From Blasia pusilla (lineage: Eukaryota): a stretch of DNA of 64,000 nucleotides. Both the position numbers and the translations under genes were made by a program. A model generated the notes under the pieces. It searched no databases. It saw nothing but the letters and a program-made list of their open reading frames with translations, and was not told the DNA's origin. Below, one piece after another: positions 25,451 to 63,772 of the stretch. Within the stretch, counting starts at the first letter, position 1, and every line of letters starts with the position of its first letter. The DNA lies in the NCBI GenBank assembly GCA_050084515.1, contig CM114271.1, positions 23,622,001 through 23,686,000 on the forward strand, read 5' to 3'.

Positions 25451-25820
25451 TTAGCTCATTACCCGTTCGATTCACATGTGTAGTGATCGAGCAATTGCCA
25501 TGAGAGATGGCGACCTTAGCAGCATTTAGCATTGCCATCACTTGGCTTAGTGATTTGATTGAGGGACATGTCCATGCAGAGGATACTCCCATTTGTGACA
25601 TTTGTATGGAGAGGAGAGTTATGGTAGTCGCATCATTCCGTGGAGGAGAGGTGCCGCTGTGGGGCTCGATTGAGGAGCTTCGACGATTGGCAGATGAGTT
25701 CGTGCAAACCGCGTGGAGCGAGGCGTTTGCACCGGAGCATGATGGGTCTGAGGAACCCAAGGTAGCAGGGAGTGCTACGATGATAGTCTTGGATACCACA
25801 CCCATTGTGTGGATATTTGA

Positions 25821-26760: not shown

Positions 26761-27115
26761 GATCTTCAGCTTCGGAGTGGCTGACCAGCGTCAGATGAGA
26801 TCGCGACAGATCACAGCGGTTGCGTTGGTGAGCCCCATGCCTACCGAGACAGTGGAGGCAGTGGCTGGGGGCGAGACCCGAGGAGATCGACACACCAAGG
26901 GAGATCGAGAGAGACACCCTTGGACTTCTTGGGATGTTTTGCAGGTAGGCCAGGAGATAATAGCCACAGCATCAAGCGTGGTTCCGAGCAATGCATGTGG
27001 AGGAGATCAGAGTTTGTTGTTGGCCGCAGGAGAGCGTTCGAGTATTGTCGTTCGAGACGGGGTTGCACCATAGCAACCACCGATATCCGCGCCGGAGAGT
27101 CCTACTGTAGTCACG

Positions 27116-28571
27116 ATGGAGACTTGGGAGCCAGATATGGGCCCTAAGTTGACAGGAGGAGAGCGGCGCCAAATACATCAGTTCCTCAGGAGTTATAGGA
27201 GCTGCTTTGCGTTTAGCATGGAGGATCTAGGTACGCTGAAGGGACGGGGGATCCGCATTGAGTTGTCGAGTGATACGTCGATCTTCCGATGGCCCTACTG
27301 GTACAGTGATATGAAGAGGGCTTTGATTCAGAGCAAGAGCCAGGACTTGGTTGGAGCATGATTAGTGGAGATGTCGCATGGGGAGTATGGATCTGCCACT
27401 GTCATGCCCGCCAAGAAGGATGTGCATGGCAACAGGACGGATGGGCGGATGTGGGGGGATTACCGACCTATCAATTGGCATACAAAGTCCGATAGGTATG
27501 CCATGCCCACCCGTGAGGAGATCTTTGATGCGATTGGTCATGCAAAGGATTTGATTCATTGATTTATGAAGTCGGATACCATCACCGCCTATCGATTGGT
27601 GGGACAGTGAAGACGGCATTTTGGGGCATCGATCCTTACGGGAAGGATTGTTTGTACTAGTGGCGGTTCTTACCATTTGGGTTGAAAACGCCCCGGCTGA
27701 GTTTCAGAGGGTCATGGATAGGATCTTGGCTGGTCTGGATTTTGCTAGGTCTTATATTGATGACATCGTAGTCTTTAGCGCCATGGTTGAGGAGCATGAG
27801 CGACATCTAGAGGAGGTGTTTTGACAATTGCAATTACATGGGCTGAAGCTACATCCAGGCAAGTGCAAGTTCTTCTACGACCAGATTGAGTATTTGGGTC
27901 ATACGATATATCCTGGGGGCCTTGGTGTTCAGCAGACAAAGGTAGAGGCTATCTCACGCATTCCACACCCTACAGATGTGAGCCGTATTCACGAATTCAT
28001 GGGATTGGCGAACTTCTATCGGCGGTACATCAAGGGATTCAGTTCGATTGCGAAGTCGCTGACCTTGCTGACCAAGGTGGATCACGAGTGGCACTGGGAG
28101 GGATGAGGAGGAGCGATCATTTCAGTTGCTCAAGGATAGGTTGACGTCCTCGCCCATCTTGAGGAGACCGATCAGGGGGCGTTCTTAACATTGCACACAG
28201 ATTGGAGCATGTTGGGGCTTGGAGCAGTGCTCACCCAACATGATGATGAGGATAGAGAGTTCGTGGTGGCTTACGGTAGCCGCTTGAACAACGTTGCAGA
28301 GGCAAAGTTCAACTCGTATGAGGGTGAGTGCTTGGCTGCAGTGTGGGCTATCGCGCATTTTAGGTGTTACTTCTTCGGAAACCCCTTTACAATCATCACT
28401 AATCATCAACCACTGAAGATGTTGATGGAGTCTGACAAGCTTACAGGAAGCTTGCGAGATGGGCAATGTTGTTGCAAGAGTATGATTTGCAGGTGGTACC
28501 CTCAACCAGGATGCAGATGGGTTGAGTCGTAACCCATGCCCGAGTCAGCGAGATGCGATTGGAGCTCGATG
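27116..28571 (+). pseudogene. pol: Reverse transcriptase and RNase H of copy 1 (degenerate)
   Basis: RT motifs DYRPIN...DRYAMP and YIDD (27753-27764), plus LKLHPGKCKF and YLGH. RNase H motifs HTDWSMLGLGAVLTQ, SYEGECLAAVWAI and TNHQPLK. Confidence 0.92.
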
Positions 28572-29573
28572 TGTCGCGCCCCTACTCTCCTTGAACGTCA
28601 ATCTTTAGTGTTGCGGAAGCGTACGTTCAGTAGGTCATGAACTCATCGCTGATCTGCACCCAAACACGCACTCTCGTTAGTCGGGTCTTGGCCAACCAGC
28701 GTTCCAACCCACCGAGTCCTCAACTCGGCGTCTCATCAAGCTCAACCTTCCTTAGTTCCTAGTTTCCAAAACATGGCAAGTCCTTCAAGACTTGGAACAG
28801 ACTTCCTGGTTAGTTCAGGGATTTGAAACGGCACTTGCGCGCCTAGGGATCCCAACTGTTCAACGGTCCTTGGGTGAGTTCCGAACCGAGACCCAAGTAA
28901 TTGAGTCGCGGGGTGGAATCCAAGAGGGATGTCTAAAATTGCCTCAATGGACTTGGTGCAGGTTTTCCAACCCAACCCCCAAACTCGCGTTCCGTTCCAT
29001 GCCCTTGAGCCGCCCCGTGGTGCCCAAAGTGGGGTTTGGGTTCCAAGCACTCTCGGAGACCTTCCCCTTTACTAGTACTTCTGGGGTTCTCCAATAGCCC
29101 CTCCCCTTTGGGAAAAGAGGGTCGGGCCCTTCATTGTGGCCTTCAACCCGACTCCACTTACAGTCGTTTTCGGGTTGTATCTCGGCCGCTGCTTATGCGT
29201 TTGCAGCGATCTTTGGTGCGTTTGGACCGGCTCTTCCTAAGCTTTCCAACTCACTCTTATTTGTTCCAAAGAATCTTGGCGCTAAAAGTTATGGCCATAA
29301 ATACAGTCAGAAACTCTCAAACGCTAGTGGCGTTCCAAATCCGGATCTTTCCTTTGGCAACCCACTTCCTAGACTCGACTTCTTTCAAGTCTCATTCCGC
29401 GTTTGGTCCAGTTTTCTCAATCGCGACCATAGCATCTAAAACGCGACTCCTCGCTCGCGTCTCGTCTCTTGTCTCCTCTTTGAGACAACTCCAACGCGCA
29501 AACCATCTTAGCGTGAGCCCGCTAATGTTCCGATGTTCCGCTTGGCACTTGTTTGGTCATGAGGGTCGCAACA
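28572..29573. mobile_element. Solo LTR (1002 bp) of an unrelated conventional LTR retrotransposon nested in copy 1
   Basis: TGTCGCG...CGCAACA termini and a perfect 5-bp TSD CGATG (28567-28571 / 29574-29578). Copy 2 has the empty site gagctcgatggcatgg (~61206). Confidence 0.92.
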
Positions 29574-29899
29574 CGATGGCATGGAGAGAGTGATGAGGAG
29601 TCAGTGCTAGGATGGCTCGCGTCAGCCTATTTAGGCATGTTAGCTATGGAGAGCGAGAGTGTGGAGACTTCGATGGCGAGGTCTAGTGGAGAGTCCTTGG
29701 ATCCTGAGGCCAGTGAGGAGACGATAGATGGCCGAGATATTCATGATGATGGAGTAGTCTTGGAGTACCTTCGGACTAGTAGCGTTGCGAGCACCGTGGG
29801 TGCTAGAGAGCGGGATCGGATCCTACAACGGGCCAAACGGTTTCGTTGGGAGGGGACACATGTTTTGAGGGTTTGGGAGGATGGAAGAGTACGCGTGGT

Positions 29900-31171
29900 G
29901 CCGCATCCTTTGCAGAGAGCACGACTAGTGCAGCATGCCCACGAGGAGTTGGGTCACGGGATGAAGCGGACGTACAACTTGCTCCAGATTCACTATTGGT
30001 GGCGAGGCATGCAGACTGACGTTCAACAGTTTGTTGCCAGATGTATGGTGTGTGATCGGGTCCGAGCATCAATGCTCTGACTCCACATTTGCATCCATTA
30101 CCGATCATGGGCTTAGGGTATAGATGGAGTTTGGATTTTGCAGGACCTTTGCCTTTGACGAAGCGTCACAGTTGTTATGTGTTGGTGATGGTCGATCACT
30201 TCTCGAAGTGGATCGAGTTGGCTGCATTGCCTGACAAAGCGAGTGAGGGAGTAGCTTATGCCTTCCTTAACAGAGTATTGAGTCATTATGGCGCACCGGC
30301 TGAGGTGTTGACAGACCAATATACTGAGTTTCGCAGTGAGTTCCAGCCCTTGTGTGATTAGGCGCTGATCGACCATCGCACGACTTCGCGAGATCATCTT
30401 GAGGCGGATGGATTAGCGGAGAGAGTTGTGTACACGGTGAAGAGGGGTTTACGCAAGTATGGCTTGCAGAGAGGTCACATAGGAGATTGGGACCTCCAAT
30501 TGCCCTGGTTGGCGATGGGATACAGATTTAGCAGGCAGGCATCCTTAGCGTCTTTTTCACCATACTTGCTACTTTATGGCCGAGAGCCAGATTTGCCTGC
30601 GGCCATTCGTCGAGATGCTGGTGAGGTGTTGGATCTTGATGACCCATATATATGGATGCGAGCATGTTCTTAGAGGGATGAGTTGTTTCGGAGAGTGATG
30701 CCCATGGCGTTCGAGAACTTCGCGATTGCACAACATCGGGATACGTTGAGGTATGCGACTATTCGGGGTGGTGGTTATCGGCCAACTATCCGGAGGTTTC
30801 ATCAAGGAGACTTTGTATACTTGCAGCAGACGCCACCGACGACATTGGATGTGACTGTAGGGCGCACTAACCTGAGAGTGCGTGACGTTTTGCCATCCGG
30901 TGTTCTCTTGTGGGAGGGACGCGATGGTATGGTATGGAAGGACCATGTGCGTAATTGTGCGCCATTTCACCTTCCTAACATTGATGGTACAGTAGATCCG
31001 AGCTGAGCAGTAGTTCCTGCAGGCTTGCGTTGTATATTGTATGGTTCTGCCCATGGTGCGGCCACGATGCTAGTCTGTGATGGATGTTCAAGAGGTTGGC
31101 ATATGGCATGTCTGACGCCACTTCTCACTAGGATTCCTTGGGGACGATGGATGTGTCCCAGATGTACATAG
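29900..31171 (+). pseudogene. DDE integrase with C-terminal PHD finger, copy 1 (degenerate)
   Basis: HHCC (HEELGH...CMVC), WSLDFAGPLP, VLTDQ, GLAERVV. PHD-like CILY...CDGCSRGWHMACL...WMCPRC at 31031-31165, stop TAG 31169-31171. Confidence 0.9.
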
Positions 31172-34100
31172 AGGAGATACTAGGTAGGTTTGATTTCGAA
31201 CTGAAAAATTCGATTTCGAATTTTTCTGTGACATGGATGACAAGAAGGCGACAAATGATGGGGCCACATGAGCACCCGGCCTTCTTGCTCTTAGCGTCCG
31301 AGAGATGTATGTCATGGTAGGTAGAGATAGATGGCTATCTGGAGTTAGAGGGACCTAACCACCAGCTAAGGGGCGATTGGAGATATTTTAGTACTTCTTG
31401 TCTTGTTGTTTGGATGCCATGAGTTAGCATGGGATCGTGCGTGTTTGTGTGTGTGTTCGGTGACAGCGATGTATGTTCCATAGTGATGTGTGTGCGCACG
31501 ATAACTGTAATGTCTTTTAGGATAGATCGGTGAGATCTAGTAGAGCGCCTTCGTTAGTAGTGGAGGACACGCTCAGTAGGTCGAGGATGACATGTTGAGG
31601 CCCCATGAAACCTGAGAGAGCAGGTTTCCCCTTCGTTTCGGCTCATTTGGAGCCATATTGAAGAACTTGCTATTTTAGGTAAGTACCATTTTGAGTATAT
31701 GATCAACTTTATATTTTTGGTAAGTGGCCCTTGTCCTCCTACATCTGGTCAAGAGCCAAGGAGGTGACTTGGGAGAATAGGTTACCATGGAGAGAGCTTG
31801 GGAGAGGGGAGGGGTGAACCTCAAGGAGAGAGAGCTTGAGAGCTCATTCTCTCTTTGTTGAACCTCTTGGCATGAGGCGGCGGAGCTATGGTCCCTTGCC
31901 TTGTAAGTGTAATCCAAGCCTCTCATTAGGAGAGTGGGTTTGGTTTGACATGAGAGAGAGTGCACACCTTTGAGAGCTGTGGTGTGAGATGGTATAAAGA
32001 GAGATTGGATCTTACTTTAATTGGAGATATTTTAGTACTTCTTGTCTCGTTGTTTGGATGCCATGAGTTAGCATGAGATTGTGCGTGTTTGTGTGTGTGT
32101 TCGGTGACAACGATGTATATTGTATAGCGATGTGTATGCGCACAACAGGCTTGTTAAGACTTGAAGGCATGCCATAGGTGCGATCGGGGCTTGGCAAGTT
32201 GAGGGTGAGCCTCATGCAAGCTTGCAGGCCTGGCAGGCGGGCCATTTGGGCTTAGTGTGAGCCAATAAGGCAAGTGGTGTGCGGACCATGCGGATTTCTT
32301 GTAGGCCTAGGTTCTGAGCATGTGGGTTGTGCGGACTAAGGCTTGGGACAAGGTTTAAGATGTTGGATTCTGAACATCCACTTCTCTGAGCACCATTAAT
32401 TTAATCGGCCCCCTTGAATGAGGAAAAGCCTAGTTTGATGGTTCCGACTTAGACGTCGAAGGAGTCATAGTAGTATGACGTAGGTGGTTTGTGGAGTAGC
32501 GTTACTAGGATTATCCAACCCTATATTGCATCAGGGTCCGGGGCACCCTGATGCGTCGCAGGGGTCCAAAGGTGCAGCCCTTGGTATGCCAAGACGACGC
32601 GGGGGTCCGAAGAAAATTAGGTTAAAAACCTAGTTTCCTAAGTAGTGACATAGTGGGGAGCGGCATCGGTAGCGCGTTCTCATATGTCAAGTTATCTCCA
32701 TATTCAGGTTCCATCGAAGCTCTTCTGTGAGCGCACAGACGGACCAGGCCACTTTGTATCTCTATGTTTTGTAAAGATTTCAGTGATTTCGTCACTTTTG
32801 TTTTCTCACATGAGGGTGTGGGTTGAAGCAAGCTCCGCGAGGCTGCGTCCGAACTTAAGCGCGGTTCATGTGTGGGTAGGGGAAGATTTTGAAGGTTATT
32901 GAAGGCACTTGAGGGGATGGAGAAGAAAGTAGAAGATTAAAATATAATTGCAAATGAATGTGGTTAAAGAAGTGGGAATAGTAGTGATCGAGAGAGGTAG
33001 GATGCATGTTAAAATAGAATTGAATTAGGTGGTTGTATTAGAAAATAGATTAGTTGCAAACAAAAGTGGATAAAGAAGTTAGGATAGTTGAATAAGGATT
33101 GGGTTTAGGAGAAAAAAAAAAGATTTGCTAAATGATAATTACTATGAATGGTTTATATGATAATTTAAAATAAAAAGTGGGAGGCATTTGGAGATCTTCT
33201 TAGTGAAAAAGTAAAGAAAATTTTTGAGCAAAGTAGTTTTGAAAAAGGATAAATTGAGAACGTCTACCTTGTTTCCGAGGACTCTAGTACATCACAAGCT
33301 CAGAATTAATAGTAAGTGGGGGTAAATCAGGTAAAAGAGTGAAGGGTTCATTCTCTTCCATCCACACTCCCCAATATAAAATTATTTATTTTGGGTATAT
33401 CCTCACAATCTCATTCCTCCCTTCATATCTTTCTATCTCTACTCTTTTATGGAAAAAACATATCTCCATAGATAGGTGAACTTGATAAGTGAGACTATAT
33501 TTTGCCACTAGATAATCATGATAGTTTAAGGTATTTTGGTTATCTAGGTTAGCATATTGATCATTCTTGTTCATAGTGATGGTTCCACAATTGCTTGTGG
33601 AGCATTCACAGACAATATTTGGTGTAAGTTATTTATATTTCACCGGTCGATATATCCTATTATAGACATTATGTACGCTTGATCTTCTGTAAATCACTTT
33701 AACTCGCCCCTCTATTCTTAAAGGGTATGGTTTGGTCACATCCAATTTTCAAGATGCCCACCATTCTAGAATGGATAGATGACGTATAGTGGATGCTCGA
33801 TCAACCTTCCCACTATGGGAGCCATCCCTTGATATAAAATTGTTGCAAACATCTCCTCACACATTATTGATTATCTTGAATAAAACCGAGATGCTTCCTT
33901 AAACACCTTCATGCAATAGTAAATATCCTCACTAAATCCAAGGATTTGATTTATTTTACAACAATATATGGTTCCGTGTAAACCTGAGTCGTCAATATCC
34001 TCAAAATAATGTCCTACTACTACATCCTTGTAAGAAATCCACTTACATCCATGAGAAACCACCAATTTCTTCCCTACATGAGTATTAAGTCCCTTAAAAA

Positions 34101-34329: not shown

Positions 34330-37300
34330 TGTCATGCGCATACACATCGCTACACAACATACATTGCTGTCATCGAACACACCCACAAACACTCACGATC
34401 CCATGCTAACTCATGGCATCCATACACAAAGGCGAGAAGTACCAAAATATCTCCAATCTGATAATTGATAACCTCCTGGTGCAGCACCATCTCCTCCTCC
34501 ATGCTGAGGCACACGTCCATGACCTTGACAAGTGCAATCGCGCTGATGATAGGCTCCACCACATGACCAACAAGTAATAGTAGGAGGCTGCTGTTGAGCC
34601 GCATATGAAGATGCAGGGTCTCTATGGCACGGCCTCCTAGTATCCTCCCTGAGCTCGTGGTGCCACAGTCGATCTATCTCGGAGTCCACGTTGTTGCACA
34701 TGTGGTGCAGCCAATCATGACTGCTCTCGCCTAGAACCCATTGTGGCTACGCTCTCCTCTGCCATGTTGCACTCAATGTTCTCGGCGGTCCTAGAAGCAT
34801 CTCTCAACATAGGGAAGGTGTTCATAAGAAGTACCCCCTCCCCCACCTGTGTTCGAAGGGTCTGGTCCAACATTGCGTACCATGATTGGATAGCCTGAGC
34901 CTGTGTCACCCCCTGAGTGACGTTGATCAACCGGCGCAAGCGAGTGTAAGCCTCACGCAAACTCTCACTTGGGCGCCTCTGTAAGTCATGGATGCTCCGC
35001 AACTTCTCCGTCCGTACCCCTTGGTAGCTCACCCTCAACTCAGCAAAGAATTCAACCACAGGGTTGAACCTGTGACGACCCCGCCTAGACGTTGCAACTG
35101 CTCTAGTGCGAGTGACCCCTCCTAAAATGTCACTTGTGGAAGAGGAAGTAGCCTCTTTTGACTCCTCCTCCTCATGTGGGAGTGGCTCCGTCCATGACAT
35201 ATAATGTGGGTCATAGTAGAGCCTCAACGCCTAGATCTCACATGCATATCTCTGAGAGAATTCATGGTCATCGTCCATGGGCGCCCCCTCTAAGAAATTG
35301 TGCAACTTAATCGTGCCTATTGCACCAGAAAACCTACGCGGTCCTCTACCTCGGTCGTCCATCTCGTATACCCAACTGGTAGGACCACTCACAATGTGTG
35401 GCGATGTGCTCACAAATTCCTCTACATCCTCCCCCTCGTCTAACGATGACATAGAAGGAGGTCGAGGTGGTCCCTCACATGGAGACCCTTGAAAACTCGT
35501 GCCACTCCGTGTAAAACCTGTAGAGCTACTCTTGGGTTGACCACCTCGCCTCTCAAAGTCTCGAATGGACGCCGTGATGACCCTCGTGCCCCTCTCACCC
35601 GATCACTCTCAACCTTGCAAGTAATCCCTCAATCACTCATCCGAAATATGCAGCACTCGATCTACACTCTCCCTCCTCGAGACGTGTAACGTGCGGCAAC
35701 ACGCGGCGTGGTGTGGAAAATTGACCAGGCTATCATCTCATTGACAACCTACCCTCAACTCTGGATATCCCACACAAATCTATGTCCCCTAAACCACATA
35801 CATGAAGGATGCTCTCAGCATCCACATAACCCAATATCCCCAAATAAACTTTCTAAATCCCAGAATCCCTCACACGTGCAGGGTAAAGGACCAGAATGGG
35901 TAACCTGAACACATGTCGATGTCGCTCCTCAGCAACTTCAAATCTCAACCCCAACTTGGTTGTGAAGACAACTCCTCCAATCAGCAAGTCGTACTCCTCT
36001 CGTTCTGACGCTACTCAACCTCCTCGATGTGCGGTGCAGGTTGAGCGGTCTGGTGCAGCACTGGCGGCATGAGACGGCTACAAAAAGCACGGCACTCGGT
36101 GGCATAGCCTCCTCAATCAGCAATTCACACGCTCTGCTCCTTAGTGAAGGAGCGGTTCCTCGATCGAGACGGTGCGGTGTGGCACGAGCGGCACGACGCA
36201 ACAATCGGCCGCGCGTTGCAGCTACACGCGTCACGACACGATACTCGATCGTTGTCGAGCAGCTACCAATCACAACATAACAACATGAAATCAAAACTCA
36301 AACACCATAACCGGAGGTCATCTGCCATCACTGGTTGATGACAAAATTGCGATGAAAGTGACGGCCAAAACAAAGTAAGTGGTGGCAACATCATGGAAGA
36401 CCCTCCACTCCATAATGGCGGCAATGGCAACCAAAGGGTGGACAACGGACGGTGGACCGTTGATGGTGACGATTGACCGTTGATGGTGACGGTGACGGTT
36501 GACCATTGACGATGACGGTTGACTATTGACGATGATGGTTGAATGTTGATGGTGAACCGTTGATAGTGACTATGATGGCGACGGCCGCCGGCGACGTGGC
36601 GGCTGGTTTAGGGTTTGAACAATTTAACCCTAAAGATCACCTCGCAATGGCAGTTTTGCAAGATTGACCATAACGTTTTTCTCGCAACTCTAAATTGTGC
36701 ACTGTTTATTGCACAGCGTGCACAACTGCATGATCTACGACAACATCAAAAAATATTTAGAATTGGACATTCCAATAAAAACTGACAGGGATTGTTGGAA
36801 AGCCCAATGTCTCTTTCTCCTACACAAAATTTGGCAGCGCTTCCGCGCTGATTTCTCCCAACGAAAATGTAAAATACAAATCAGCAAGTTACATGGTGCT
36901 CCCAAAAGCGCCAGAATGGGGCAACCTGCCCCCATAATCAATTCCTATCAGAAATTGGGTAGTTCTTCCGCGCGCCAGTCTTCCACACAAAAAATCGGCA
37001 AATGCAAGGAAGAATCAAAGCAGCCCTTGCTCCGATGAGCAGTCCCATGAGCCGCTGAACGGGGAACACGGTCCTCAACCTGCAAAAATAGCGAGTGACC
37101 AATGAGCTCCGCCATGAAGCTCTCTCACTCTCTCATTCTCTCATTCTCTCATTCTCTCTTTCTCTCATTCTCTCTTTGTAAAGTAAGATCCAATCTCTCT
37201 CTACACCATCTCACACCATAGCTCTCAAAGGTGTGCATTCTCTCTCATATCAAACCAAACCCACTCTCCTAATGAGAGGCTTGGGTTACACTCACAAGGC

Positions 37301-37691
37301 AAGGGACCATAGCTCTACTGCCTTATGCCAAGAGGTTCAACAAAGAGAGAATGAGCTCTCAAGCTCTCTCTCTTGGAGGTATACCCCCTTCCCTCTCCCA
37401 AGCCCTCTCAACGGTAACCTATACTCACAGGTCATCTCCTTGGCTCTTGACCTGCTGTAGCGGGTCAAGATTCACTTCCCAAAGTGGAAAGTCAACTATC
37501 CCTAATATGGAAACTTACCCGAAATAATAAGTTTCTCTATATGGCTCCAAATGAGACGAAACGAAGGTGAAACCGGCTCTCTTAGGTTCCCCAAGGCCTC
37601 AACAGGTCATCCTCAACCTTGTGGGCATGTCCTCCACTACTCGTGTAGACGCTCTACTTGATCCCACCGATGTATCCTAACAGTCGTGACA
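34330..37691 (-). mobile_element. Internally deleted copy 3 of the same retrotransposon (A - leader - partial gag - B)
   Basis: The minus strand starts TGTCACG at 37691 and ends GACA at 34330, with TSD GCCT (34326-34329 / 37692-37695). A 37179-37691, B 34330-34458. Gag ORFs 35231..35452, 34715..35227 and 34411..34701. Confidence 0.92.
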
Positions 37692-53496: not shown

Positions 53497-53805
53497 TGTC
53501 ACGTCTTTTAGGATAGATCGGTGGGATCTAATAGAGCGCCTTCATGAGTAGTGGAGGACACGCCCAGTAGGTTGAGGGTGACCTGCTGAGGCCCTTGGAA
53601 ACTTGAGATAGCAGGTTTCCCCTTCGTTTCGGCTCATTTGGAGCCATATTGAGGAACTTACTATTTTAGGTAAGTACCATTTTTAGTATATGATCGACTT
53701 ACTATTTTTGGTAAGTGACCCTTGACCTCCTACATCAGGTCAAGAGCCAAGGAGGTGACTTGGGAGAATAGGTTACCATGGAGAGAGCTTGGGAGAGGAG
53801 AGGGG

Positions 53806-53849
53806 TATACCTCAAGGAGAGAGAGCTTGAGAGCTCATTCTCTCTTTGT
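53806..53849 (+). promoter_or_regulatory. Putative Pol II core promoter in repeat A (TATA-like element plus initiator-like TCATT)
   Basis: TATAC (TATAAC in A2) at 53806, and CTCATTC about 30 nt downstream (53834). The same segment is complementary to the PBS-position sequence. Confidence 0.45.
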
Positions 53850-54009
53850 TGAACCTCTTGGCATGAGGCGGCGGAACTATGGTACCTTGCCTTGTGAGTG
53901 TAACCCAAGCCTCTCATTAGGAGAGTGGGTTTGGTTTGACATGAGAGAGAGTGCACACCTTTGAGAGCTATGGTGTGAGATGGTGGAGAGAGAGATTGGA
54001 TCTTACTTT

Positions 54010-54025
54010 ACAAAGAGAGAATGAG
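54010..54025 (+). promoter_or_regulatory. Putative self-priming primer-binding site
   Basis: ACAAAGAGAGAATGAG begins at the last base of A1 and is the exact reverse complement of 53834-53849. There is no tRNA-type TGG PBS. The same sequence occurs in copy 1 (21323-21338) and copy 3 (37164-37179). Confidence 0.6.
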
Positions 54026-57000
54026 AGAATGAGAGAGTGAGAGAGCTTCATGGGGAGAGCTGGTCACTCGCTGTTTTTGTAGGTTGGGGACCGTGTTCCC
54101 CGTTCAGCGGCTCATGGGAGTGCTCACCGGAGCAAGGGCTGCTTTCATTACTCTTTGCATTTGCCGATTTTTCGTGTGGAAAAGTGGCGCGCGGAAGCGC
54201 TGCCCAATTTCTGATAGGGATTGAGTATGGGGGCGGGTTGCCCCATGCTGGTGCTCTCGGGAGCACCATGTAGCTTGCTGATTTGTATTTTTACAGATGT
54301 TACATTTTCGTTGGGAGAAATCAGCGCGGGAGCGCTGCCGAATTTTGTCTAGGAGAAAGAGACATTGGGATTTACGACAGTCCCCGTCAGTTTTTACTGA
54401 AATGTCCGATTCTAAATATTTTTTGATGGTAGCGTAAATCGTGAAGCTGTGCACACTGTGCAACAAACAGTGCACAATTTGGAGTTGCAAGCAAAAAGTT
54501 ATGGGCAATCTTGTAAAGCTGCCATTGCTAGGCGATTTTTAGGGTTAAATCGTGCAAACCCTAAATCAGCCGCCCCACCGGCGGCGGCCGTCGCCATCAT
54601 AGTCACCGTCAACGGTCGATGGTCAACCGTCACCATCATCGGTCGGTCGTCACCATCAGCGGTCAACCGTCACTGTCAAGGGTCCACCGTCCATTGTCCA
54701 CCCTTTGGGTGCCATTGCCGCCATTACGGAGTGGAGGGTCTTCCATGACGTTCGTTGATTCCTTGACTTGCGTCGCCACCACGTACTTTGTTTTGGACGC
54801 CACCGTCATCGCAGTTTCTTCATCAACCAGTGAAGGCAGATGACCTCCGGTTATGGTGTTTGAGTTTTGATTTCATGCTGCTATGTTGTGATTGGTAGCC
54901 GCTCGACGACGATCGAGTATCGTCGCGGACGCCCGTGAGCCGCAACGCCGCCGATTGCCGCGCCATGCCGCTCGGGGCGCACCGCACCATCTCGATCACG
55001 AGCCGCACCGTCATTGTGGAGCAGAGTGTGGGATTATTATTGATTGAGGAGGGTATGCCGCCGAGTGCCGCATCCCACCATCGGGGCGTGCCGTTCGAGC
55101 CGTTCGTGCCGCTGCAACGCCGCACCGTTCGTTGGGACCGCATCGTCTATCGAGGAGTTTTGAGCAAAGATCGATGACGGGAGGAGTATGACTTGTTGAT
55201 TGGAGGAGTTGTCTCCACGATCGAGTTGGGGTCGAGATTTGCGATTCTTTGAGGAGCGACATCGACATGTGTTCAAGTTAGGTTACCCATTCTGGTCCTT
55301 TACCCCGCACGTGTGAGGGATTTAGGATTTATTTGGGGATATTGGGTATGTGGATCGAGAGCATCATTTATGTATGTGGTTTAGGGACATAGACCTGTGT
55401 GGGATGTCCGGAGTTGAGGGTAGGTTGTCGATGAGATGATAGCCTGGTCGATTTGCCGCACCACGCCGCGTGTTGCCCGACGTTACGTCTCGGAGAGAGA
55501 GAGTGTAGATCGAGTGCCGCATGTTTGGGATGAGTGATTGAGGGATTCCTCACGAGGTTCAGAGTGATCGGGTGAGAGGGGCACGAGGGTCATCACGGAG
55601 TCTGTTCGGGACTTTGAGAGGTGAGGTGGTGAACCCGAGAGTAGCTCTAGAGGTTTTCGCGGAGTGGCGCGAGGTTTCGAGGGTCTCCACGTGAGGGACC
55701 ACCTCGACCTCCTTCGTGTCATCGTCAGACGAGGGGGAGGGTGTAGAGGAGTTTGTGAGCACATCGCCACACATTGTGAGTGGTCCTACCAGTTGGGCGT
55801 ATGAGATGGACAACCGGGGTAGAGGACGCGTAGGTTTTCAGTGCGATGAGGGGCGATTGAGTTGCACGATTTTATAGCAGAGTTTAGGAGTTGATGCGAC
55901 TCCCGGGCCAGGAACTCTAGAGAGTTCAACCCGTTCTGACATGGAACGGTATGTTCCAGCATTTAGAGGGGGCGCCCATGGGCGATTACCATGAGTTCTC
56001 GAGAGATATGCATGTGAGATCGGCGTGGAGGCTCTACTATGACCCACATTATGTGTCATGGACGGAGCCGTTCCCAGATGAGGAGGAGGAGTCGAGGAGA
56101 GGCTCCGCCTCTTCCACTAGTGACGTTTTAGGAGGGGTCACTCGCACAGAGCGATTGCATTGCCGTCTAGTCGGGTTCGTCCCGAGTTCAACCCGTGGTT
56201 GAGTTCTTTTTGAGTTGAGGGCGAGCTACCGGGGGCGGACGGAGAAGTTGCGGAGCATCCACGACTTCAAAGGCGCTCGGGTGAGAGTTTGCGTGAGGCT
56301 TACACTCGCTTGCGCGGTTGATCAACGTCACTCGGTGGGGTGACAGAGGCTCGAGCTATCCGGTCATGGTATGCGATCTTGGACCGGACCTGCGGACACG
56401 GAGTGCGGGAGGGGTGCTTCTTATGAACACCTCCCCTACGTTGAAGATGTTTTAGGACCGCCGAGAACATTGAGCGCAACATGGCGGAGGAGAGCGTAGC
56501 CACCATGGGTTGGGCGAGAAGCGATCCACGATTATGCACCACGTGTGCGGCAGAACGTGGACTCGAGATAGGTCGATCGTGGCACCACGAGCTCGGGGAG
56601 GATACCGAGAGGCCGTGCCCACGAGACTGCGCCTTCATATGCGGCTCAGCAGCCGCCTACTATTACTTGTTGGTCATGTGGTGGAGCCCATCATCAGCCG
56701 CGATTGCACTCGTCGGGGTCATGGGCGTGTGCCTCAAAGATGGAGGAGGAGATGGTCTTTGCACCAGGAGGTTATCAATGTGACTATTGTCGAGGTATGG
56801 TCATACACGCGCCATGTGTTTTAGTTTACATCTGAGTTACGCCTGGACCGAGGGCCAGAAAGGGCACCAGAGCGAGTAGCCGGTCCGGGTGGGCCTAGAG
56901 ATCGTGCTCGGTGGTCCCGTTGGGGACGAGGAGGGAGTTGCCCGAGAGGGTGGTGGAGCTGCCCGTGGAGGAGGTAGAGTACCACCATCTAGACGCGCCG

Positions 57001-58490
57001 AGGAGATGCCGGACGTGAGGTCGGGATGGTTGCTCGATACAACGACTACAGGAGAGAGATTGCCGCTATGGCATTGAGGTTACCCGATGCGGATCCGTGG
57101 CATCGACATCATATGGAGCAGCCAGAGATCTGGAGGATCCTAGATGGATGTGCGGGGTTGCCCAGATGGAGGCCGCCGCAGTTGTGATGCGTGGAGCGCC
57201 GCAGAGTTGGATCCACGGCCAGGGGAAGCCAAGAGATGGCAGACTAGGCTTCCTCAATCTTTCACGTTGTCGAAGCGATGAGGACCCCATCGATGGGTCC
57301 TCATCAAAGTTCCGGAGAGTTGGTAATGTTGTTGGTGTGCAAGCACGAGGGCGATGGGAGAAGCGAGTGCGGCGACTCCTATTGTTGATGCTCGGGAGGG
57401 GCATGTGTCGAGCACGTTGTTGGGGCGGCCACCGTTGTGTACCGCACTCCTTTATTTTTGCTTCCGATGTTGTGGCGTTGGGAGGTACGCCCGCCGAGGC
57501 TTTTTTGGCTGGCCGCTTCACTATGTGAGCGCGAGTTGGAGTTCTGCATCACGTTAGAGGTGATTGAGGAGGTGATGGACCTGCCCTTGAGCGGATGCTC
57601 GGGCCGCCCACGTCGATTCATGGCGGTGCGGTCGCTAGGATGGCGGAGATGCCCGCTAGACCCGCGATAGAGCGTGCCATGGCTTCTCCTGGTGTTGTGT
57701 TCTTTGGATAACCGAGGAGAGGTCTTCCAATTGGTGAGTCTTGGAGGTAGAGCTTTTAGTCCGTGGCAGCGTCTTGTTGATTCAGAGCGCAACCCTTGAT
57801 GTTGGGGAAAGTGTCATTAGAGGATTGGGCTTGACGAGAGCCGATGTGGAGTGTTGTCCATTTCGGATACTGAGACATCCTTGGGTGGAGCGAGTACCAC
57901 CACAATATATCACCCGACAGAGGTCGTGGTGAGGATTCGCCGGGACATCCTGAGATGAGTCCGTGGTGCGCGCCAAGGCGATAGTGATCGATCTTTGAGT
58001 CCTCGACGTCTTGGTTGGTGGAGGAGTGTTATACCCGATGGGGTTTTCCCTGGATTCTTGGGAGGAGTCGCATCTCTGAGACCAGGATGGCAATCAGGTG
58101 ATGGGCGCCTTAGCTCATTACCCGTTCGATTCACAGGTGCGATGATCGAGCAACGGCCAGAGAGATGGCGACCTTAGCAGATTTAGCAGTGCCATCACTT
58201 GGCCTAGTGATTTGATTGAGGGACATGTCCATGCAGAGGATACTCCCGTTCCTGACATTTCTATGGAGAGGAGTGTTATGGTAGCCGCATCATTCCGTGG
58301 AGGAGAGGTGCTGTGTGGGGGCTCGGACCGAGGAGCTTCAACGATTGGCGGTGCGCACGCGCGCATCAGCGTGGAGCGAGGCGTTTGCACGAGGCGTGGC
58401 GGGTGTGAGGAACCCGAGGTAGCGGGAGTGCTACGATGACACCCTTGGATACTACACCCATTGTGTGGTGTACCGGAGGAGGGTATTCGA

Positions 58491-59420
58491 GTGTTAGATC
58501 TCTTTGGAGGGATTAGCACCGGGTTAGGCTCTTTGTTTTGAGGCAGGAGTCGAGTCTGATAGTACTTGTATGTGGAGAGTGATGATGTTGCGGCGCGTCT
58601 CACTCGACATGTGGTGCAATTACGCCCACGTTTTCCCGACTTATTGTCTGCGCCGCGTCTGGGTACCGAGTTCCCCTACCGAGGGATATTTTGTTGTTGG
58701 GGGCGCAGGACTTAGAGCGGGTAGGGACCATTGATTTGGTCATTGCCGGTTGGCCATGTCAGGGCCAATCGAGTCTTTGGGACGAGGCGCGGGTTGGTGA
58801 CACTCGGTCCAGTTGTTTTGGGAGATGTTGAGGGTCTTACGGCGATTCTGCAGGAGAGCACCGATCTCGTTCTCCAGCCTACATTCTGGAGAAAGTGCCG
58901 ATCTCAGGAGACTCCAGGTCACGGGTCGTGATGAGTGCTCATCAGGTGCGTGCCTGGATCGGCCCAGCAGTGTTCTTGGATGCGGCGAGTGTAGGTTCTA
59001 GAGCCCATTGCCCGCATCTATGGTGGACCAACTTGGTGCCCCATGCGGTGTTATGGAGGGCGTATGCGAGAGTGGAGCGCCCCTCCCCTTTGTTAGTGGA
59101 TTCCATTCTGGATCCAGGTCGTCGATCACACGCAGTGAGGCACGATGATCGACCACCGCTGACTGTGGTCAACAGGGTAGGCAGGCCGCGGGCAGCCTTG
59201 CCCACGTTTGTGAGTTTTCCCGCTTCCTATGCATACAAGGAGGCCGGTCCTGGCTTGGTTTGGGATGACCAGGTTCAGCGGTTGGTGGAGCCCAACGCCG
59301 ACGAGAGAGAGCGAGCGATGGGATTTCCCAGAGTGACGGCAGTACCATCGGTGTCAGAGGCATCACGACGCCATGTCTTGGGTCAGGCGATGGACCTGAA
59401 TCGCTTGACATGGATCCTCG
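58491..59420 (+). pseudogene. DNMT3-like C5-cytosine DNA methyltransferase domain inside Pol, copy 2 (frameshifted as assembled)
   Basis: VLDLFGGISTG (58491-58523), IDLVIAGWPCQG (catalytic PC within 58748-58765), YILE.VP, DAASVGSRAH..HLWWTNL and ERERAMGFP...RRHVLGQAMD. Confidence 0.92.
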
Positions 59421-59766
59421 GCCTTGGGAGTGGTCGAGCGGCGTCGTATGAGATCGCGACAGATCACACGGCATTGCGTTAGGAGCCCCATGCCTACCGA
59501 GACGGTGGAAAAGTGGGCTAGGGGCGAGACCCGAGGAGATCTACGCACCGGGGGGAGATCGGGAGAGACACCCTTGGACTTCTTGGGATGTTTTGAAGGT
59601 ACGCAAGGAGATGATAGCCACAACATCGAAGCGTGGTTTCGGCAATCGCACGTGGAGGAGATCGAGTTTGCGATTGGTGTAGGAGAGCGGCCGAGTGTTG
59701 TTGTTCGAGACGGGTTGCACCATAGCAACCACCGATACCCGCGCCGGAGAGTCCTACCGTAGTCAC

Positions 59767-62700
59767 GATGGAGACTTGGGAGCCAGATATGGGCCCTAAG
59801 TTGACAGGAGGAGAGCGGCGCCGAATACATCGTTCCTCGGGAGTTATAGGAGCGCTGCGTTTAGCATGGAGGATTTGGGTACGCTGAAGGGACCGGGATC
59901 CGCATTGAGTTGTCGAGTGATATGCCGATCTTCCGGCGACCCTACACAGTCTGATGATATGGAGAGGGCTCGATTGAGTAGGAGCAAGACTTGGTCGGAG
60001 CGGGACTAGTGGAGATGTCGCATGGGGAGTATGCATACCGCCCTTTGTCATGCCCGCCAAGAAGGATGTGCATGGCAACCGGGCGGATAGGCGGATGTGT
60101 GGGGATTACCGACCTATCAATCGCGACGAAGTCCGATAGGTATGCCATGCCCACCCCGAGAGATCTTTGATGCGATTGGTCACGCAAAGGTCTTGATTCA
60201 TTGATTTTGAGTGGATACCATCACCGCCTATCGATTGGAGGACAGAGGAAGACGGCATTTTGGGGCATCGATCCTCACGGGAAGGATTGTTTGTACCAGT
60301 GGCGGTTCTTACCATTTGGGTTAAAGAACGCCCGGCTGAGTTTGAGAGGGTCATGGATAGGATCTTGGCTGGTCCGGATTTTGCTAGGTGTTATATTGAT
60401 GACATTGTAGTCTTTAGCGCCACGGTTGAGGAGCATGAGCAACATCTAGAGGAGGTGTTTCGGCGATTGCAATTACATGGGCTGAAGCTACATCCAGGCA
60501 AGTGCAAGTTCTTCTATGACCAGATTGAGTACTTGGGTCATACGATATACCCGGGGCCTTGGTGTTCAGCAGAGGCGAAGGTAGAGGCTATCTCACGCAT
60601 TCCACGCCCTACTGAGATGTGAGCCGTGATCGGCGCATTCATGGGATTGACGAACTTCTATTGGCGTACGTCAAGGGATTGATTTGATTGCGGGGGCCGA
60701 CCTTGCTCACCAAGGTGGATCACGAGTGGCACCAGGGGATGAGCAGAGCGAGCATTTCGATTGCTCAGGGCAAAGTTGGCGTCCGCACCCATCTTGAGGA
60801 GACCGATCGGGCGTCCTTTCGATTGCACCTGATTGGAGCATGTTGGGGCTTGGAGCGGTGCTCACCCAAAGATGATGATGAGGGTAGAGAGTTCGTGGTA
60901 GCTTACGCTAGCCGCTCGAACAACGCTGCAGAGGTGAAGCACACTCGTATGAGGGTGAGTGCTTGGTGCGATGTGGGGTGTCGCGCATTTCAGGTGTTAC
61001 TTATTCGGCAACCCCTTTACCATCATCATCGATCATCAACCACCTGAAGTGGTTGATGGAGTCCGACAAGCTTTGAGGAAGCTTGCGAGATGGGCTCTGT
61101 TGTTGCAGGAGTATGATTTTCAGGTGGTACATAGACCTGGAACGCTCAACCAGGATGCAGATGGGTTGAGTCGTAACCCATGCCCGAGTCAGCGAGATGC
61201 GATTGGAGCTCGATGGCATGGAGAGAGTGATGAGGAGTCGGTGCCAGGATGGCACGCGTCAGCCTATTTAGGCATGTTGGCTATGGAGAGCCAAAGTGTG
61301 GAGACTTCAATGGCGAGGTCTAGTGGAGAGTCTTTGGATCCCGAGGCCAGTGAGGACACAACAAGTGGCCGAGATATTCATGATGATGGAGTAGTCTTAG
61401 AGTACCTTCGTACTGGCAGCCTTGCGAGCACCATGAATGCTAGAGAGCGGGATCGGATCCTACAGCGGGCCAGACGGTTCCGTTGGGAGGGGACACATGT
61501 TTTGAGGGTTTGGGAGGATGGTAGAGTACGCGTAGTGCCGCATCCTTTGCAGAGAGCACGACTAGTGCAAACCATGCCCACGAGGAGTTGGGTCACTTTG
61601 GGGTGAAGCGGACGTATAGCTTGCTCCAGATTCGATATTGGTGGCGAGGCATGCAGGCGATCGACGTTCAGCAGATTTGTTGCCAGGTGCATGGTGTGTG
61701 ATCGGGTCCGAGCATCGTTCAATGCTCCGACTCCACGATTGCATCCATTACCGATCATGGGCTTAGGGTATAGATGGAGTTTGGATTTTGCGGGACCTTT
61801 GCCCTTGACGGAGCGCCACGGTCGTTATGTGTTGGTGATGGTGAGCACTTTCGAAGTGGATCGAGTTGGTTGCATTGCCTGAAAAAGCAAGTGAGGGAGT
61901 AGCTTATGCCTTCCTTGACGGTGTCTTTGAGTCATTATGGCGCACCGGTGAGGTGTTGATGACCAGGTACCGAGTTTAGCGGTGAGTTCCAGGCCTTGTG
62001 TGATCAAGCGATCGACCACCGCGACGACGACCGCGAGATCATCCCGAGGCGGATGGATTAGCGGAGAGAGTTGTGCAGACGGTGAAGAGGGGTTTACGCA
62101 AGTATGGCTTGCAGAGAGGTCACCTAGGAGATTGGGACCTCCAGTTGCCATGGTTGGCGATGGAATACAAATTCAGCAGGCAGGCATCCTTATCGTCTTT
62201 TTCACCGTACTTGCTACTTTATGGCCGAGAGCCAGATTTACCTGCGGCCATTCGTCGAGATGCTGGTGAGGTGCTGAACCTTGATGACCCAGATGTATGG
62301 GTGCGAGCATGTTCTCAGAGGGCTGAGTTATTTCGGAGAGTGATTCCCATGGCGTTCGAGAACTTGGCGATTGCACAACATCGGGATACGTTGAGGTATG
62401 CGACTATTCGAGGTGGTGGTTATCGACCAACTATCCGGAGGTTTCATCAGGGAGATTATGTCTATTTGCAGCGACGGCACCGGCGGCGTTGGATGTGATC
62501 GCAGGGCGCACTATCTTGAGAGTGCGTGACATTTTGCCATCGGGTGTTCTCTTGCTGGAGGGACGCGATGGTATGGTATGGAAGGACCATGTGCGTCATT
62601 GTGCGCCATGTCACCTTCCTAACATTGATGGTACAGTAGATCCGAGCTTAGTAGTAGTTCTTGCAGGCTTGCGTTGTATGTTGTGTAGTTCTGCCCGTGA

Positions 62701-62815
62701 TGCGGCCACGATGCTAGTCTGTGATGGGTGTTCGAGAGGATGGCATATGGCATGTTTGACGCCACCTCTCACTAGGGTTCCTCAAGAACGATGGATGTGT
62801 CTTAGATGTAGATAG
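59767..62815 (+). pseudogene. pol: RT - RNase H - DDE integrase - PHD region of copy 2 (many 1-bp indels as assembled)
   Basis: CYIDDIVVFS, VVAYASR, KLARWALLLQEYDF...HRPG..NQDADGLSR, WSLDFAGPLP. Intact PHD at 62675-62809, stop at 62815. Confidence 0.9.
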
Positions 62816-62993: not shown

Positions 62994-63772
62994 CGATTGG
63001 AGATATTTTGGTTCTTCTTGTCTCGTTGTTTGGATGCCATGAGTTAGCATGGGATCATGCGTGTTTGTGAGTGTGTTCGGTGACAGCGATGTATGTTGTG
63101 TAGCGATGTGTATGCACACGACAGCTATCACGTCTTTAAGGATAGATCGGTGGGATCTAATAGAGCGCCTTCATGAGTAGTGGAGGACATGCCCAATAGG
63201 TCGAGGGTGACCTGCTGAGGCCCTTGGAAACCTGAGATAGCAGGTTTCCCCTTCGTTTCGGCTCATTTGGAGCTATATTGAGGAACTTACTATTTTAGGT
63301 AAGTACCATTTTTAGTATATGATCGACTTAATATTTTTGGTAAGTGACCCTTGACCTCCTACATCAGGTCAAGAGCCAAGGAGGTGACTTGGGAGAATAG
63401 GTTACTATGGAGAGAGCTTGGGAGAGGAGAGGGGTATAACTCAAGGAGAGAGAGCTTGAGAGCTCATTCTCTCTTTGTTGAACCTCTTGGCATGAGGGGG
63501 CGGAGCTATGGTACCTTGCCTTGTGAGTGTAATCCAAGCCTCTCATTAGGAGAGTGGGTTTGGTTTGACATGAGAGAGAGTGCACACCTTTGAGAACTAT
63601 GGTGTGAGATGGTGGAGAGAGAGATTGGATCTTACTTTAGATTGGAGATATTTTGGTTCTTCTTGTCTCGTTGTTTGGATGCCATGAGTTAGCATGGGAT
63701 CATGCGTGTTTGTGTGTGTGTTCGGTGACAGCGATGTATGTTGTGTAGCGACGTGTATGCGCACGACACGGG

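What the first reader, a model, noticed from the sequence alone, without database searches (positions are those of the whole stretch)
58491..59420. DNMT3-like cytosine methyltransferase embedded in Pol between protease and reverse transcriptase
Seen in both full copies: motif I (VLDLFGGISTG), II (YVESD), IV (GWPCQG), VI (ENV), VIII (DAASVGSxAHRxRLWWTNL) and IX/X (ERERAMGFP...RRHVLGQAM). In copy 1 the ORF pieces 26168-27562 stay in one frame from the MTase C-terminal half into RT, broken only by point stops, so the domain is part of the polyprotein. Established: these are the C5-MTase catalytic motifs, and VIII-X resemble DNMT3 (AAHRARYFWGNL; ERVFGFP; RQRLLGRSW). DNMT-carrying retrotransposons have been reported in dinoflagellates and a charophyte alga, so the concept is not new, but they are not a standard feature of land-plant Gypsy elements. 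Inference: the packaged enzyme could methylate the element's own cDNA, or alter host methylation at insertion sites.
Basis: partly seen in the sequence, partly recalled or inferred. Interest (0 to 1): 0.88.

Follow-up and report, generated by a model that had tools for sequence, protein, structure and literature searches.

The report
Dead methyltransferase-carrying Gypsy retrotransposon copies
Two decayed copies of a jumping gene in a liverwort-like plant genome really do carry a DNMT3-type DNA cytosine methyltransferase inside their polyprotein, but this kind of element is already described from a green alga, so the new point is that it also occurs widely in bryophytes.

Summary
At 58473-59434 (copy 2) and 25821-26803 (copy 1) there is an unrearranged C5 cytosine methyltransferase domain. 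It lies between the protease region and reverse transcriptase of a Ty3/Gypsy-type element. Pfam PF00145 matches copy 1. DNMT3A/B/C are the nearest solved proteins by sequence, profile and fold.

Both window copies are pseudogenes. Each has 3-4 in-frame stops, at least one frameshift and damaged catalytic motifs.

The family is large, with 837 protein clusters at E<=1e-3. Named members come from Marchantia, Calypogeia, Sphagnum, Klebsormidium, Haematococcus and Scenedesmus.

Catalytic residues are kept in 97-99% of the 218 fetched relatives. dN/dS falls to about 0.1 between old lineages.

The element shares the odd 'split direct repeat' ends reported for KnitGypsy-Dnmt3 of Klebsormidium (PMC5890265), and here it also shows 4-bp target duplications.

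Verdict: a new member of a known kind, in a liverwort-like land plant. Methylation of the element's own cDNA remains an inference.

The parts
53497..54010 (+). Copy 2, terminal repeat A1 (starts TGTCACG). The 4-bp target duplication CGGG lies at 53493-53496 and 63769-63772.
   Evidence: Self-blastn gives 97.5% identity to A2. Ends and flanks were read.
55829..58132 (+). Copy 2, gag and protease region, heavily decayed.
   Evidence: tblastn with Marchantia P0159 and P0162.
58473..59434 (+). Copy 2, DNMT3-type C5-MTase domain (the finding). Motifs I, II, IV, VI, VIII, IX and X are in order. It has 4 stops and at least one frameshift; ENV has become EKV and R-x-R has become C-x-H.
59777..61252 (+). 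Copy 2, reverse transcriptase (YIDD) and RNase H.
   Evidence: Pfam RVT_1 at 1.3e-13 and RT_RNaseH at 6.4e-9; tblastn.
61280..62474 (+). Copy 2, integrase (H2C2 zinc domain plus core).
   Evidence: Pfam Integrase_H2C2 at 3.3e-8; tblastn with P0020, P0025 and P0210.
62675..62809 (+). Copy 2, PHD finger at the C-terminal end of Pol.
   Evidence: Pfam PF00628 at 4e-9, 36.8 bits.
62995..63768 (+). Copy 2, 3' repeat block: B1 (62995-63123), 2-4 nt, A2 (63128-63639), B2 (63640-63768, ends CACGACA). A G-rich purine run lies just before B1.
20810..21323 (+). Copy 1, terminal repeat A1. The target duplication GGCT lies at 20806-20809 and 32148-32151.
   Evidence: 94.6% identity to A2; ends read.
23138..25818 (+). 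Copy 1, gag and protease region.
   Evidence: tblastn with P0159, 42% identity.
25821..26803 (+). Copy 1, DNMT3-type C5-MTase domain. It has 3 stops and one frameshift near 26246; GWPCQG has become GRPCEG, while ENV and R-x-R are kept.
   Evidence: PF00145 at E 8.4e-9; DNMT3A at 1.2e-5.
27125..28581 (+). Copy 1, RT and RNase H.
   Evidence: Pfam RVT_1 at 1.4e-14 and RT_RNaseH at 2.8e-22.
29658..31165 (+). Copy 1, integrase and the start of the PHD region.
   Evidence: Integrase_H2C2 at 9e-12; tblastn with P0020 residues 2013-2525.
31375..32147 (+). Copy 1, 3' repeat block: B1 (31375-31501), spacer, A2 (31506-32019), B2 (32020-32147).
34330..37691 (-). Copy 3, an internally deleted relative: A, leader, 5' part of gag, then B. 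It has no Pol and no MTase. The target duplication is AGGC.
   Evidence: Self-blastn; ends read.

Best explanation
The feature is the methyltransferase module of a 'Gypsy-DNMT3' retrotransposon.

What the element is (shown):
- It is a Ty3/Gypsy-type element ordered gag, protease, MTase, RT, RNase H, integrase, PHD.
- Its Pol carries an unrearranged DNMT3-type C5 cytosine methyltransferase domain.
- The window holds two full-length copies and one internally deleted copy, in a bryophyte genome that is most likely a liverwort.
- All three are old insertions. The two MTase domains are pseudogenes, so nothing is made from this locus.

What holds for the family (shown): in living relatives the domain is translated as part of Pol and is kept under purifying selection with its catalytic residues intact.

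Mechanism (inferred, about 40-50% likely): the enzyme travels with RT and integrase and puts 5-methylcytosine on the element's newly made cDNA or on the fresh insertion. The new copy would then carry a host-like methylation pattern rather than look like foreign DNA.
For: Identity:
- PF00145 match.
- DNMT3A is the best solved match for copy 1 (1.2e-5), for the Marchantia relative (1.7e-8) and for a 45-sequence family profile (9.3e-29).
- An AlphaFold model of an intact relative, the L002 ORF, has pLDDT 85.8 and pTM 0.83. All rows shown for ranks 1-49 by Foldseek are DNMT3A/B/C.

Part of Pol:
- Domain order follows.
- Relatives have single ORFs running through MTase and RT.

Same family as the published alga element:
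- Klebsormidium KFL_000540020 matches at E 4.6e-23 and falls in the same half of the MTase tree.
- The A1...B1-A2-B2 repeat layout is in both full window copies and in 4 of 14 relatives' loci examined. This is the layout the legend of Fig. 4c in PMC5890265 describes.

Selection in the family:
- Among the 218 fetched relatives, the motif IV Cys is kept in 170 of 172 rows that cover it, the E of ENV in 190 of 194, and the two Arg of motif VIII in 195 of 204 and 196 of 202.
- Over 1252 copy pairs with at least 100 shared codons, median dN/dS falls from 0.61 (dS 0.05-0.15, n=185) to 0.33 (0.15-0.3, n=340), 0.32 (0.3-0.6, n=30), 0.14 (0.6-1, n=6) and 0.10 (1-2, n=35).

Decay of the window copies.

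Host:
- The neighbouring DPH7 gene best matches Marchantia (55%), Riccia (54-55%) and Calypogeia (50%) at 95-97% coverage.
- The window MTases sit in a clade with Calypogeia and Marchantia (100* support).

The family is transcribed: three RNA-seq runs of the organism label that best holds this DNA lay 3700-3906 reads each over the whole element, about 10:1 on one strand.
Against: - No enzymatic activity has been shown for this lineage. The Klebsormidium domain gave no methylation in yeast, though human DNMT3B failed in the same assay (PMC5890265).
- Within the window, copy 1 against copy 2 looks close to neutral. MTase-N gives dN/dS 1.18 and MTase-C 0.56, and off-frame controls give 0.66-0.90. 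Over 275 codons the value is 0.74. The window alone therefore gives no evidence of selection.
- Only 4 of the 80 metagenome loci have the whole domain in one ORF, so most copies everywhere are dead.
- Only 28-41 of about 3800 laid RNA reads per run are at least 99% like this copy. The transcripts come mostly from other family members.
- I could not place the domain in a tree with canonical DNMT3 and DRM sequences, because none could be fetched. 'DNMT3-type' rests on similarity ranking and on the published tree for Klebsormidium.
Confidence: 0.85

Rival explanations
1. The domain is active but its substrate is RNA. It would methylate the element's genomic RNA or a primer, as DNMT2 does for tRNA, rather than DNA.
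For: A DNA methylation assay of the Klebsormidium domain was negative (PMC5890265). The same paper raises RNA methylation for its LINE-borne DNMT. The domain sits directly upstream of RT.
Against: DNMT2 chains score far below DNMT3 (3e-7 against 9.3e-29). All Foldseek rows shown for ranks 1-49 are DNA-bound or apo DNMT3. The negative yeast assay was inconclusive because DNMT3B also failed.
Confidence: 0.1
2. The domain is kept as a non-catalytic DNA or chromatin-binding module, like DNMT3L, that tethers the pre-integration complex. Methyl transfer would be irrelevant.
For: Pol also carries a PHD finger, a chromatin reader. An earlier scan note (e1-2850094, unchecked) describes a diatom Gypsy with an MTase fold that lacks catalytic residues.
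Against: The catalytic Cys, ENV and R-x-R are kept in 97-99% of relatives that cover them. A mere binding module would not need this.
Confidence: 0.05
3. The MTase is not part of the element. It is a host DNMT3 gene fragment caught between nested insertions, or an assembly chimera.
For: The window is rich in nested and broken transposons.
Against: The same domain lies at the same place in both copies, which have different target duplications. It shares a frame with RT, and it is in single ORFs with PR and RT in dozens of relatives from other organisms.
Confidence: 0.01

Closest known systems
KnitGypsy-Dnmt3 of Klebsormidium nitens (de Mendoza et al. 2018, PMC5890265; passages read)
   Same: - It is an LTR Gypsy element with an unrearranged Dnmt3-type domain inside Pol, upstream of RT.
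- Its repeats are laid out as in DIRS elements.
- The domain is under purifying selection in the family.
- A K. nitens protein matches the window domain directly (E 4.6e-23, 35% identity).
   Different: - The host is a liverwort-like land plant, not a charophyte alga.
- MTase identity is only about 35%.
- The window copies are dead.
The supplements of that paper were closed, so some of these may be shown there.
Canonical DNMT3A/3B/3C (solved structures)
   Same: - Same catalytic fold and the same order of motifs I to X.
- The motif VIII-X wording resembles DNMT3A (alignment).
- They are the best sequence, profile and fold matches.
   Different: - There is no PWWP or ADD domain; Pfam found none.
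- The domain is embedded in a retrotransposon polyprotein.
- Identity to the model is only 19-23%.
PAT-like / DIRS tyrosine-recombinase retrotransposons
   Same: The terminal layout A1 ... B1 A2 B2 ('split direct repeats'). That term and its link to PAT-like elements are recalled, apart from the Fig. 4c legend in PMC5890265.
   Different: - It encodes a DDE integrase (H2C2 and rve); no tyrosine recombinase was found.
- It makes 4-bp target duplications: 3 of 3 window copies and 3 of 4 relatives' loci with readable ends.
Chromoviruses (Ty3/Gypsy elements with a chromodomain after integrase)
   Same: A Gypsy Pol with a chromatin-reader domain at the C-terminal end of integrase.

Membership tests
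C5 cytosine methyltransferase (Pfam PF00145) | Match above the curated Pfam score. | tested here: met
   Copy 1 at 25770-26270 scores 35.7 bits against a cut-off of 22, E 8.4e-9. The copy 2 piece alone scores 10.6 bits, below the cut-off. Intact relatives score E 1e-7 to 1e-12.
C5 cytosine methyltransferase (Pfam PF00145) | Catalytic motifs IV (P-C), VI (E-N-V) and VIII (R-x-R) present. | tested here: inconclusive
   They are present in the family at 97-99%. Neither window copy has all three intact: copy 1 has GRPCEG, and copy 2 has EKV and C-x-H.
DNMT3 class of eukaryotic DNMTs | Nearer to DNMT3 than to DRM, DNMT1, DNMT2 or bacterial enzymes, with the motif order not rearranged. | tested here: met
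   Profile against the PDB: DNMT3A 9.3e-29, DNMT3B 1e-25, DRM 4.8e-14, HhaI 2e-9, DNMT2 3e-7. All Foldseek rows shown for ranks 1-49 are DNMT3. The motif order I to X was read.
DNMT3 class of eukaryotic DNMTs | Placement inside the DNMT3 clade in a phylogeny with reference DNMTs. | not tested
The published tree places the Klebsormidium element DNMTs as a divergent Dnmt3-related clade (PMC5890265).
Gypsy-DNMT3 retrotransposons (KnitGypsy-Dnmt3 type) | Ty3/Gypsy Pol order with the DNMT in the Pol ORF. | tested here: met
   PR region, MTase, RT, RNase H, INT in both copies.
Gypsy-DNMT3 retrotransposons (KnitGypsy-Dnmt3 type) | Homology of the DNMT domain to the Klebsormidium element's DNMT. | tested here: met
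   P0147 (KFL_000540020) matches at E 4.6e-23 with 35% identity. It falls in the same layout-A half of the tree (FastTree only).
Gypsy-DNMT3 retrotransposons (KnitGypsy-Dnmt3 type) | DIRS-like arrangement of the terminal repeats. | tested here: met
   A1...B1-A2-B2 in both full window copies and in L020, L030, L033 and L071.
Gypsy-DNMT3 retrotransposons (KnitGypsy-Dnmt3 type) | [quoted passage not shown] | tested here: met
   Family level: dN/dS falls to 0.10-0.14 for deep pairs and residues are conserved. The window pair alone gives 0.74, not distinguishable from neutral.
DIRS / PAT-like tyrosine-recombinase retrotransposons | Tyrosine recombinase instead of integrase, and no target duplication. 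| tested here: not met
   Integrase H2C2 and rve were found, and no recombinase. 4-bp duplications are present.

The most novel reading that the evidence does not exclude
These elements may form one old lineage of methyltransferase-plus-PHD Gypsy elements that spans green algae and bryophytes and is still transcribed, and perhaps mobile, in liverworts.

Their ends would not be ordinary LTRs. The B1-NN-A2 joint (ACA-NN-TGT) looks like a circle junction. The A1...B1A2B2 layout is what results if a cDNA whose reverse-transcription repeat is B-NN-A is closed end to end and then opened by integrase at that joint.

In this reading the enzyme writes host-like 5mC on the cDNA before integration. The two positions of the MTase in Pol (before RT, or between RNase H and integrase) split the MTase tree cleanly. 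That points to a single relocation or a second capture early in green-plant evolution.
Probability: 0.25. Interest if true: 0.7.

Novelty: new member of a known kind. Interest (0 to 1): 0.45.

Why it matters
Hosts use DNA methylation to silence transposons, so a transposon that brings its own de novo methyltransferase turns the usual picture around. Papers describe this from dinoflagellates and one charophyte alga, and two later papers refer to it under 'streptophytes'.

This window shows the same lineage in a liverwort-like land plant. The searches show it is common in Marchantia, Calypogeia and Sphagnum annotations and reaches chlorophytes. Marchantia is a tractable model with intact gene models of this family, so the open question of what the enzyme methylates, and to whose benefit, becomes testable in a land plant.

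The locus itself has no function, because its copies are dead.

Tried and rejected
- Whole-genome search: no genome is held for this window, so copy number and intact copies in the host could not be counted.
- dN/dS between the two window copies is uninformative. Values of 0.56-1.18 in the MTase compare with 0.66-0.90 in off-frame controls.
- PDB phmmer with the copy 2 piece alone gave only a chance-level dioxygenase hit at 8.9e-4. The N-terminal half of copy 1 was needed to see DNMT3A.
- Rooting the MTase tree with canonical DNMT3 or DRM was not possible, because no reference sequences were fetchable. The tree is FastTree with midpoint rooting only.
- I looked for a tRNA-type primer binding site (TGG...) after A1 and found none. 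The sequence there is purine-rich (CAAAGAGAGAATGAGAG) and poorly conserved among relatives.
- Copy 3 (A...B with duplication AGGC) was considered as evidence that A...B alone can transpose. I rejected this because one internal deletion of a full copy explains it equally well.
- The look-up of sequencing runs listed no indexed holder on record as RNA. The RNA evidence comes from laying raw reads.
- Literature: five searches found no paper describing these elements in liverworts or mosses. led only to a 2026 preprint that cites 'streptophytes (Gypsy-DNMT3)'. One search found no paper linking split direct repeats to integrase-bearing Gypsy elements. Subscription journals and supplements were not searchable.
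- Earlier notes of this scan hold nothing on this genome and no look-alike sequence. One note on a diatom element turned up.

Full report
**What is there**

The window holds three copies of one LTR-type element (self-blastn).
- Copy 1 spans 20810-32147 on the + strand.
- Copy 2 spans 53497-63768 on the + strand.
- Copy 3 spans 37691-34330 on the - strand. It is an internally deleted relative with no Pol.

Pfam on read-through translations (stops as X) and tblastn with intact relatives give the same order in both full copies: gag, protease region, C5-MTase, RT, RNase H, integrase (H2C2 plus core), and a C-terminal PHD finger. RT before integrase, together with RT_RNaseH and Integrase_H2C2, fits Ty3/Gypsy. 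I found no chromodomain and no tyrosine recombinase.

**The methyltransferase**

- PF00145 matches the N-terminal half of copy 1 at E 8.4e-9 and 35.7 bits, above the cut-off of 22. The copy 2 piece alone stays below the cut-off.
- DNMT3A is the best solved match for copy 1 (1.2e-5) and for an intact Marchantia relative (1.7e-8).
- A 45-sequence family profile gives DNMT3A 9.3e-29, DNMT3B 1e-25, DNMT3C 1.5e-25, tobacco DRM 4.8e-14, Arabidopsis DRM2 3e-10, M.HhaI 2e-9 and DNMT2 3e-7.
- An AlphaFold model of an intact relative's ORF (L002:11558-12904) has mean pLDDT 85.8 and pTM 0.83. By Foldseek, every row shown for ranks 1-49 is a DNMT3A, 3B or 3C chain, with E about 1e-18 to 1e-15. TM normalised to the target is 0.77-0.84 for the catalytic-domain chains.

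The call 'DNMT3-like C5-MTase' therefore stands. I could not make a tree with reference DNMTs, so clade membership rests on these rankings and on the published tree for the Klebsormidium elements.

**State of the window copies**

Both are pseudogenes.
- Against the Calypogeia relative, copy 1 has 3 in-frame stops and one frame change. Copy 2 has 4 stops and at least one frame change, and a further stretch of it lies in a third frame.
- Copy 1 has GRPCEG in place of GWPCQG.
- Copy 2 has EKV in place of ENV, and C-x-H in place of the R-x-R of motif VIII.
- The paired A repeats are 94.6% identical in copy 1 and 97.5% in copy 2. The two copies are 86-90% alike.
- dN/dS between the two copies is near neutral: MTase-N 1.18, MTase-C 0.56, RT 0.56-0.74, integrase 0.22-0.49, off-frame controls 0.66-0.90. 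It is 0.74 over 275 HMM-aligned codons.

The window alone says nothing about selection.

**The family**

phmmer of the copy 2 piece against 1.84 billion representatives gives 837 clusters at E<=1e-3, 434 at E<=1e-10 and 50 at E<=1e-30. Many of these are polyproteins of 1000-3200 residues.

Named members, with identity to the window piece where a call gave it:

| Source | Identity to the window piece |
|---|---|
| Calypogeia fissa | 64-65% |
| Marchantia polymorpha (many gene models) | 55-62% for most; a few partial or divergent models lower |
| Sphagnum | 46-50% |
| Klebsormidium nitens KFL_000540020 | 35%, E 4.6e-23 |
| Haematococcus | 33% |
| Scenedesmus sp. ('pol') | 37% |

Among the 218 relatives fetched, the catalytic residues are almost invariant in the rows that cover them:
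- motif IV Cys in 170 of 172;
- E of ENV in 190 of 194, and N in 177 of 195;
- the two Arg of motif VIII in 195 of 204 and 196 of 202.

A scan of metagenome contigs gave 80 loci. Only 4 of them have the whole domain in one ORF.

Codon-level comparison covered 69 copies, including the two window copies. It gave 1252 pairs with at least 100 shared codons. Of these, 613 were saturated and 36 fell outside the bins. Median dN/dS falls with divergence:

| dS bin | Pairs | Median dN/dS |
|---|---|---|
| 0.05-0.15 | 185 | 0.61 |
| 0.15-0.3 | 340 | 0.33 |
| 0.3-0.6 | 30 | 0.32 |
| 0.6-1 | 6 | 0.14 |
| 1-2 | 35 | 0.10 |

This is the pattern expected when copies decay neutrally after insertion while the active lineages are under purifying selection. 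The pairs are not independent, and the method is plain Nei-Gojobori.

**Two layouts**

Among the 218 relatives:
- 54 have the MTase before RT (PR-MT-RT-RH-INT, the window's layout);
- 63 have it between RNase H and integrase, usually followed by a PHD finger;
- 101 show only the MTase.

A FastTree of 171 domain rows splits into two halves with 99* support that follow this layout. The one exception sits on a very long branch.
- The window copies pair with each other, inside a 13-row clade (100*) with Calypogeia, Marchantia and unnamed rows.
- With partial rows added, the Sphagnum proteins join this clade, now 17 rows (99*).
- Klebsormidium falls in the window's half and Haematococcus in the other.

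**Ends of the element**

Both full copies have A1 (514 bp) at the 5' end. At the 3' end they have B1 (about 129 bp), a short spacer, A2 and B2.
- A starts TGTCACG and B ends CACGACA.
- The spacer at the B1/A2 joint reads as 2 nt once point changes are allowed for.
- A G-rich purine run lies just before B1.

I self-blasted 14 relatives' loci, and 4 show the same layout: L020, L030, L033 and L071. The same end words appear in L020, L030 and L033.

4-bp target duplications flank all three window copies: GGCT, CGGG and AGGC. They also flank L020 (CATA), L030 (GGTC) and L033 (CCAA). The ends of L071 were unclear.

So integration is integrase-type, although the repeat layout is the one known from PAT-like DIRS elements. 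The legend of Fig. 4c in de Mendoza et al. 2018 says the same of KnitGypsy-Dnmt3 (PMC5890265).

A circle-junction model would explain the layout. In it, the reverse-transcription repeat is B-NN-A, the cDNA is closed end to end, and integrase opens it at ACA-NN-TGT. This is my inference and is untested.

**Host and expression**

A neighbouring host gene at 49225-50819 (- strand) encodes DPH7. Its best matches at 95-97% coverage are Marchantia (55%), Riccia (54-55%) and Calypogeia (50%). Mosses and vascular plants follow. The host is a bryophyte, most likely a liverwort, and not close to those three genera.

Three RNA-seq runs carrying the same organism label as the best DNA holder were laid on copy 2 at 90% likeness.
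- They give 3700-3906 reads each across the whole element.
- About ten times more first mates lie on the - strand. With the usual stranded protocol this means sense transcripts.
- Only 28-41 reads per run are at least 99% alike, and most are 90-95% alike.

The family is therefore transcribed, mostly from other members.

**Comparison with what is known**

The nearest described thing is KnitGypsy-Dnmt3 (passages read). It is a Gypsy element with a Dnmt3 domain in Pol, DIRS-like repeats and Ka/Ks below 0.2. Its activity in yeast was not detected, which the authors call inconclusive.

Later papers speak of DNMT3-bearing retrotransposons in 'streptophytes' (passages of PMC12344493, and of bioRxiv 10.64898/2026.05.21.726589).

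My searches found no paper on liverwort or moss members. Supplements and non-open journals could not be searched.

**Verdict**

The finding is real and was read correctly. It is a new member of a known kind in a new host group, and the copies here are dead. The function of the enzyme is still an open question for the whole lineage.

Noticed in passing
window 34330-37691 (-): A third, internally deleted copy of the same element: A repeat, leader and 5' part of gag, joined directly to a B repeat. It has its own 4-bp target duplication, AGGC.
   Followed up: yes
window 28571-29574: Copy 1 has about 1 kb between RNase H and integrase that copy 2 lacks. It matches nothing else in the window and may be a nested insertion.
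   Followed up: no
window 49225-50819 (-): A host gene for DPH7 (diphthine methyl ester acylhydrolase, WD40). Its best matches are liverwort proteins at 50-55% identity.
   Followed up: partly
window 18469-18957 (+) and 10759-10923 (-): Weak gag-like (25% identity to Marchantia P0159) and integrase-like (38% identity to P0020) remnants of other retroelements. The 8-12 kb region is AT-rich (32% GC), while the element copies are at 52-57% GC.
   Followed up: no
relatives P0020, P0025, P0059, P0210 and others: In the wider family the MTase sits in two places in Pol: before RT, or between RNase H and integrase. The MTase tree splits along this line. Most long members also end in a PHD finger.
   Followed up: partly
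window 53300-63950, RNA runs X22-X24: RNA reads show a joint 59889>60944 (skipping 1054 bases of RT, with 5 letters between) in 3, 10 and 5 reads. This suggests transcribed deletion derivatives. Among the differences between this copy and the reads, C>T and G>A changes dominate.
   Followed up: no
window 21324-23137 and 54011-55828: About 1.8 kb lies between the A1 repeat and the start of gag. It begins with a purine-rich run and has no recognisable tRNA primer site. No coding match was found with the relatives used.
   Followed up: partly
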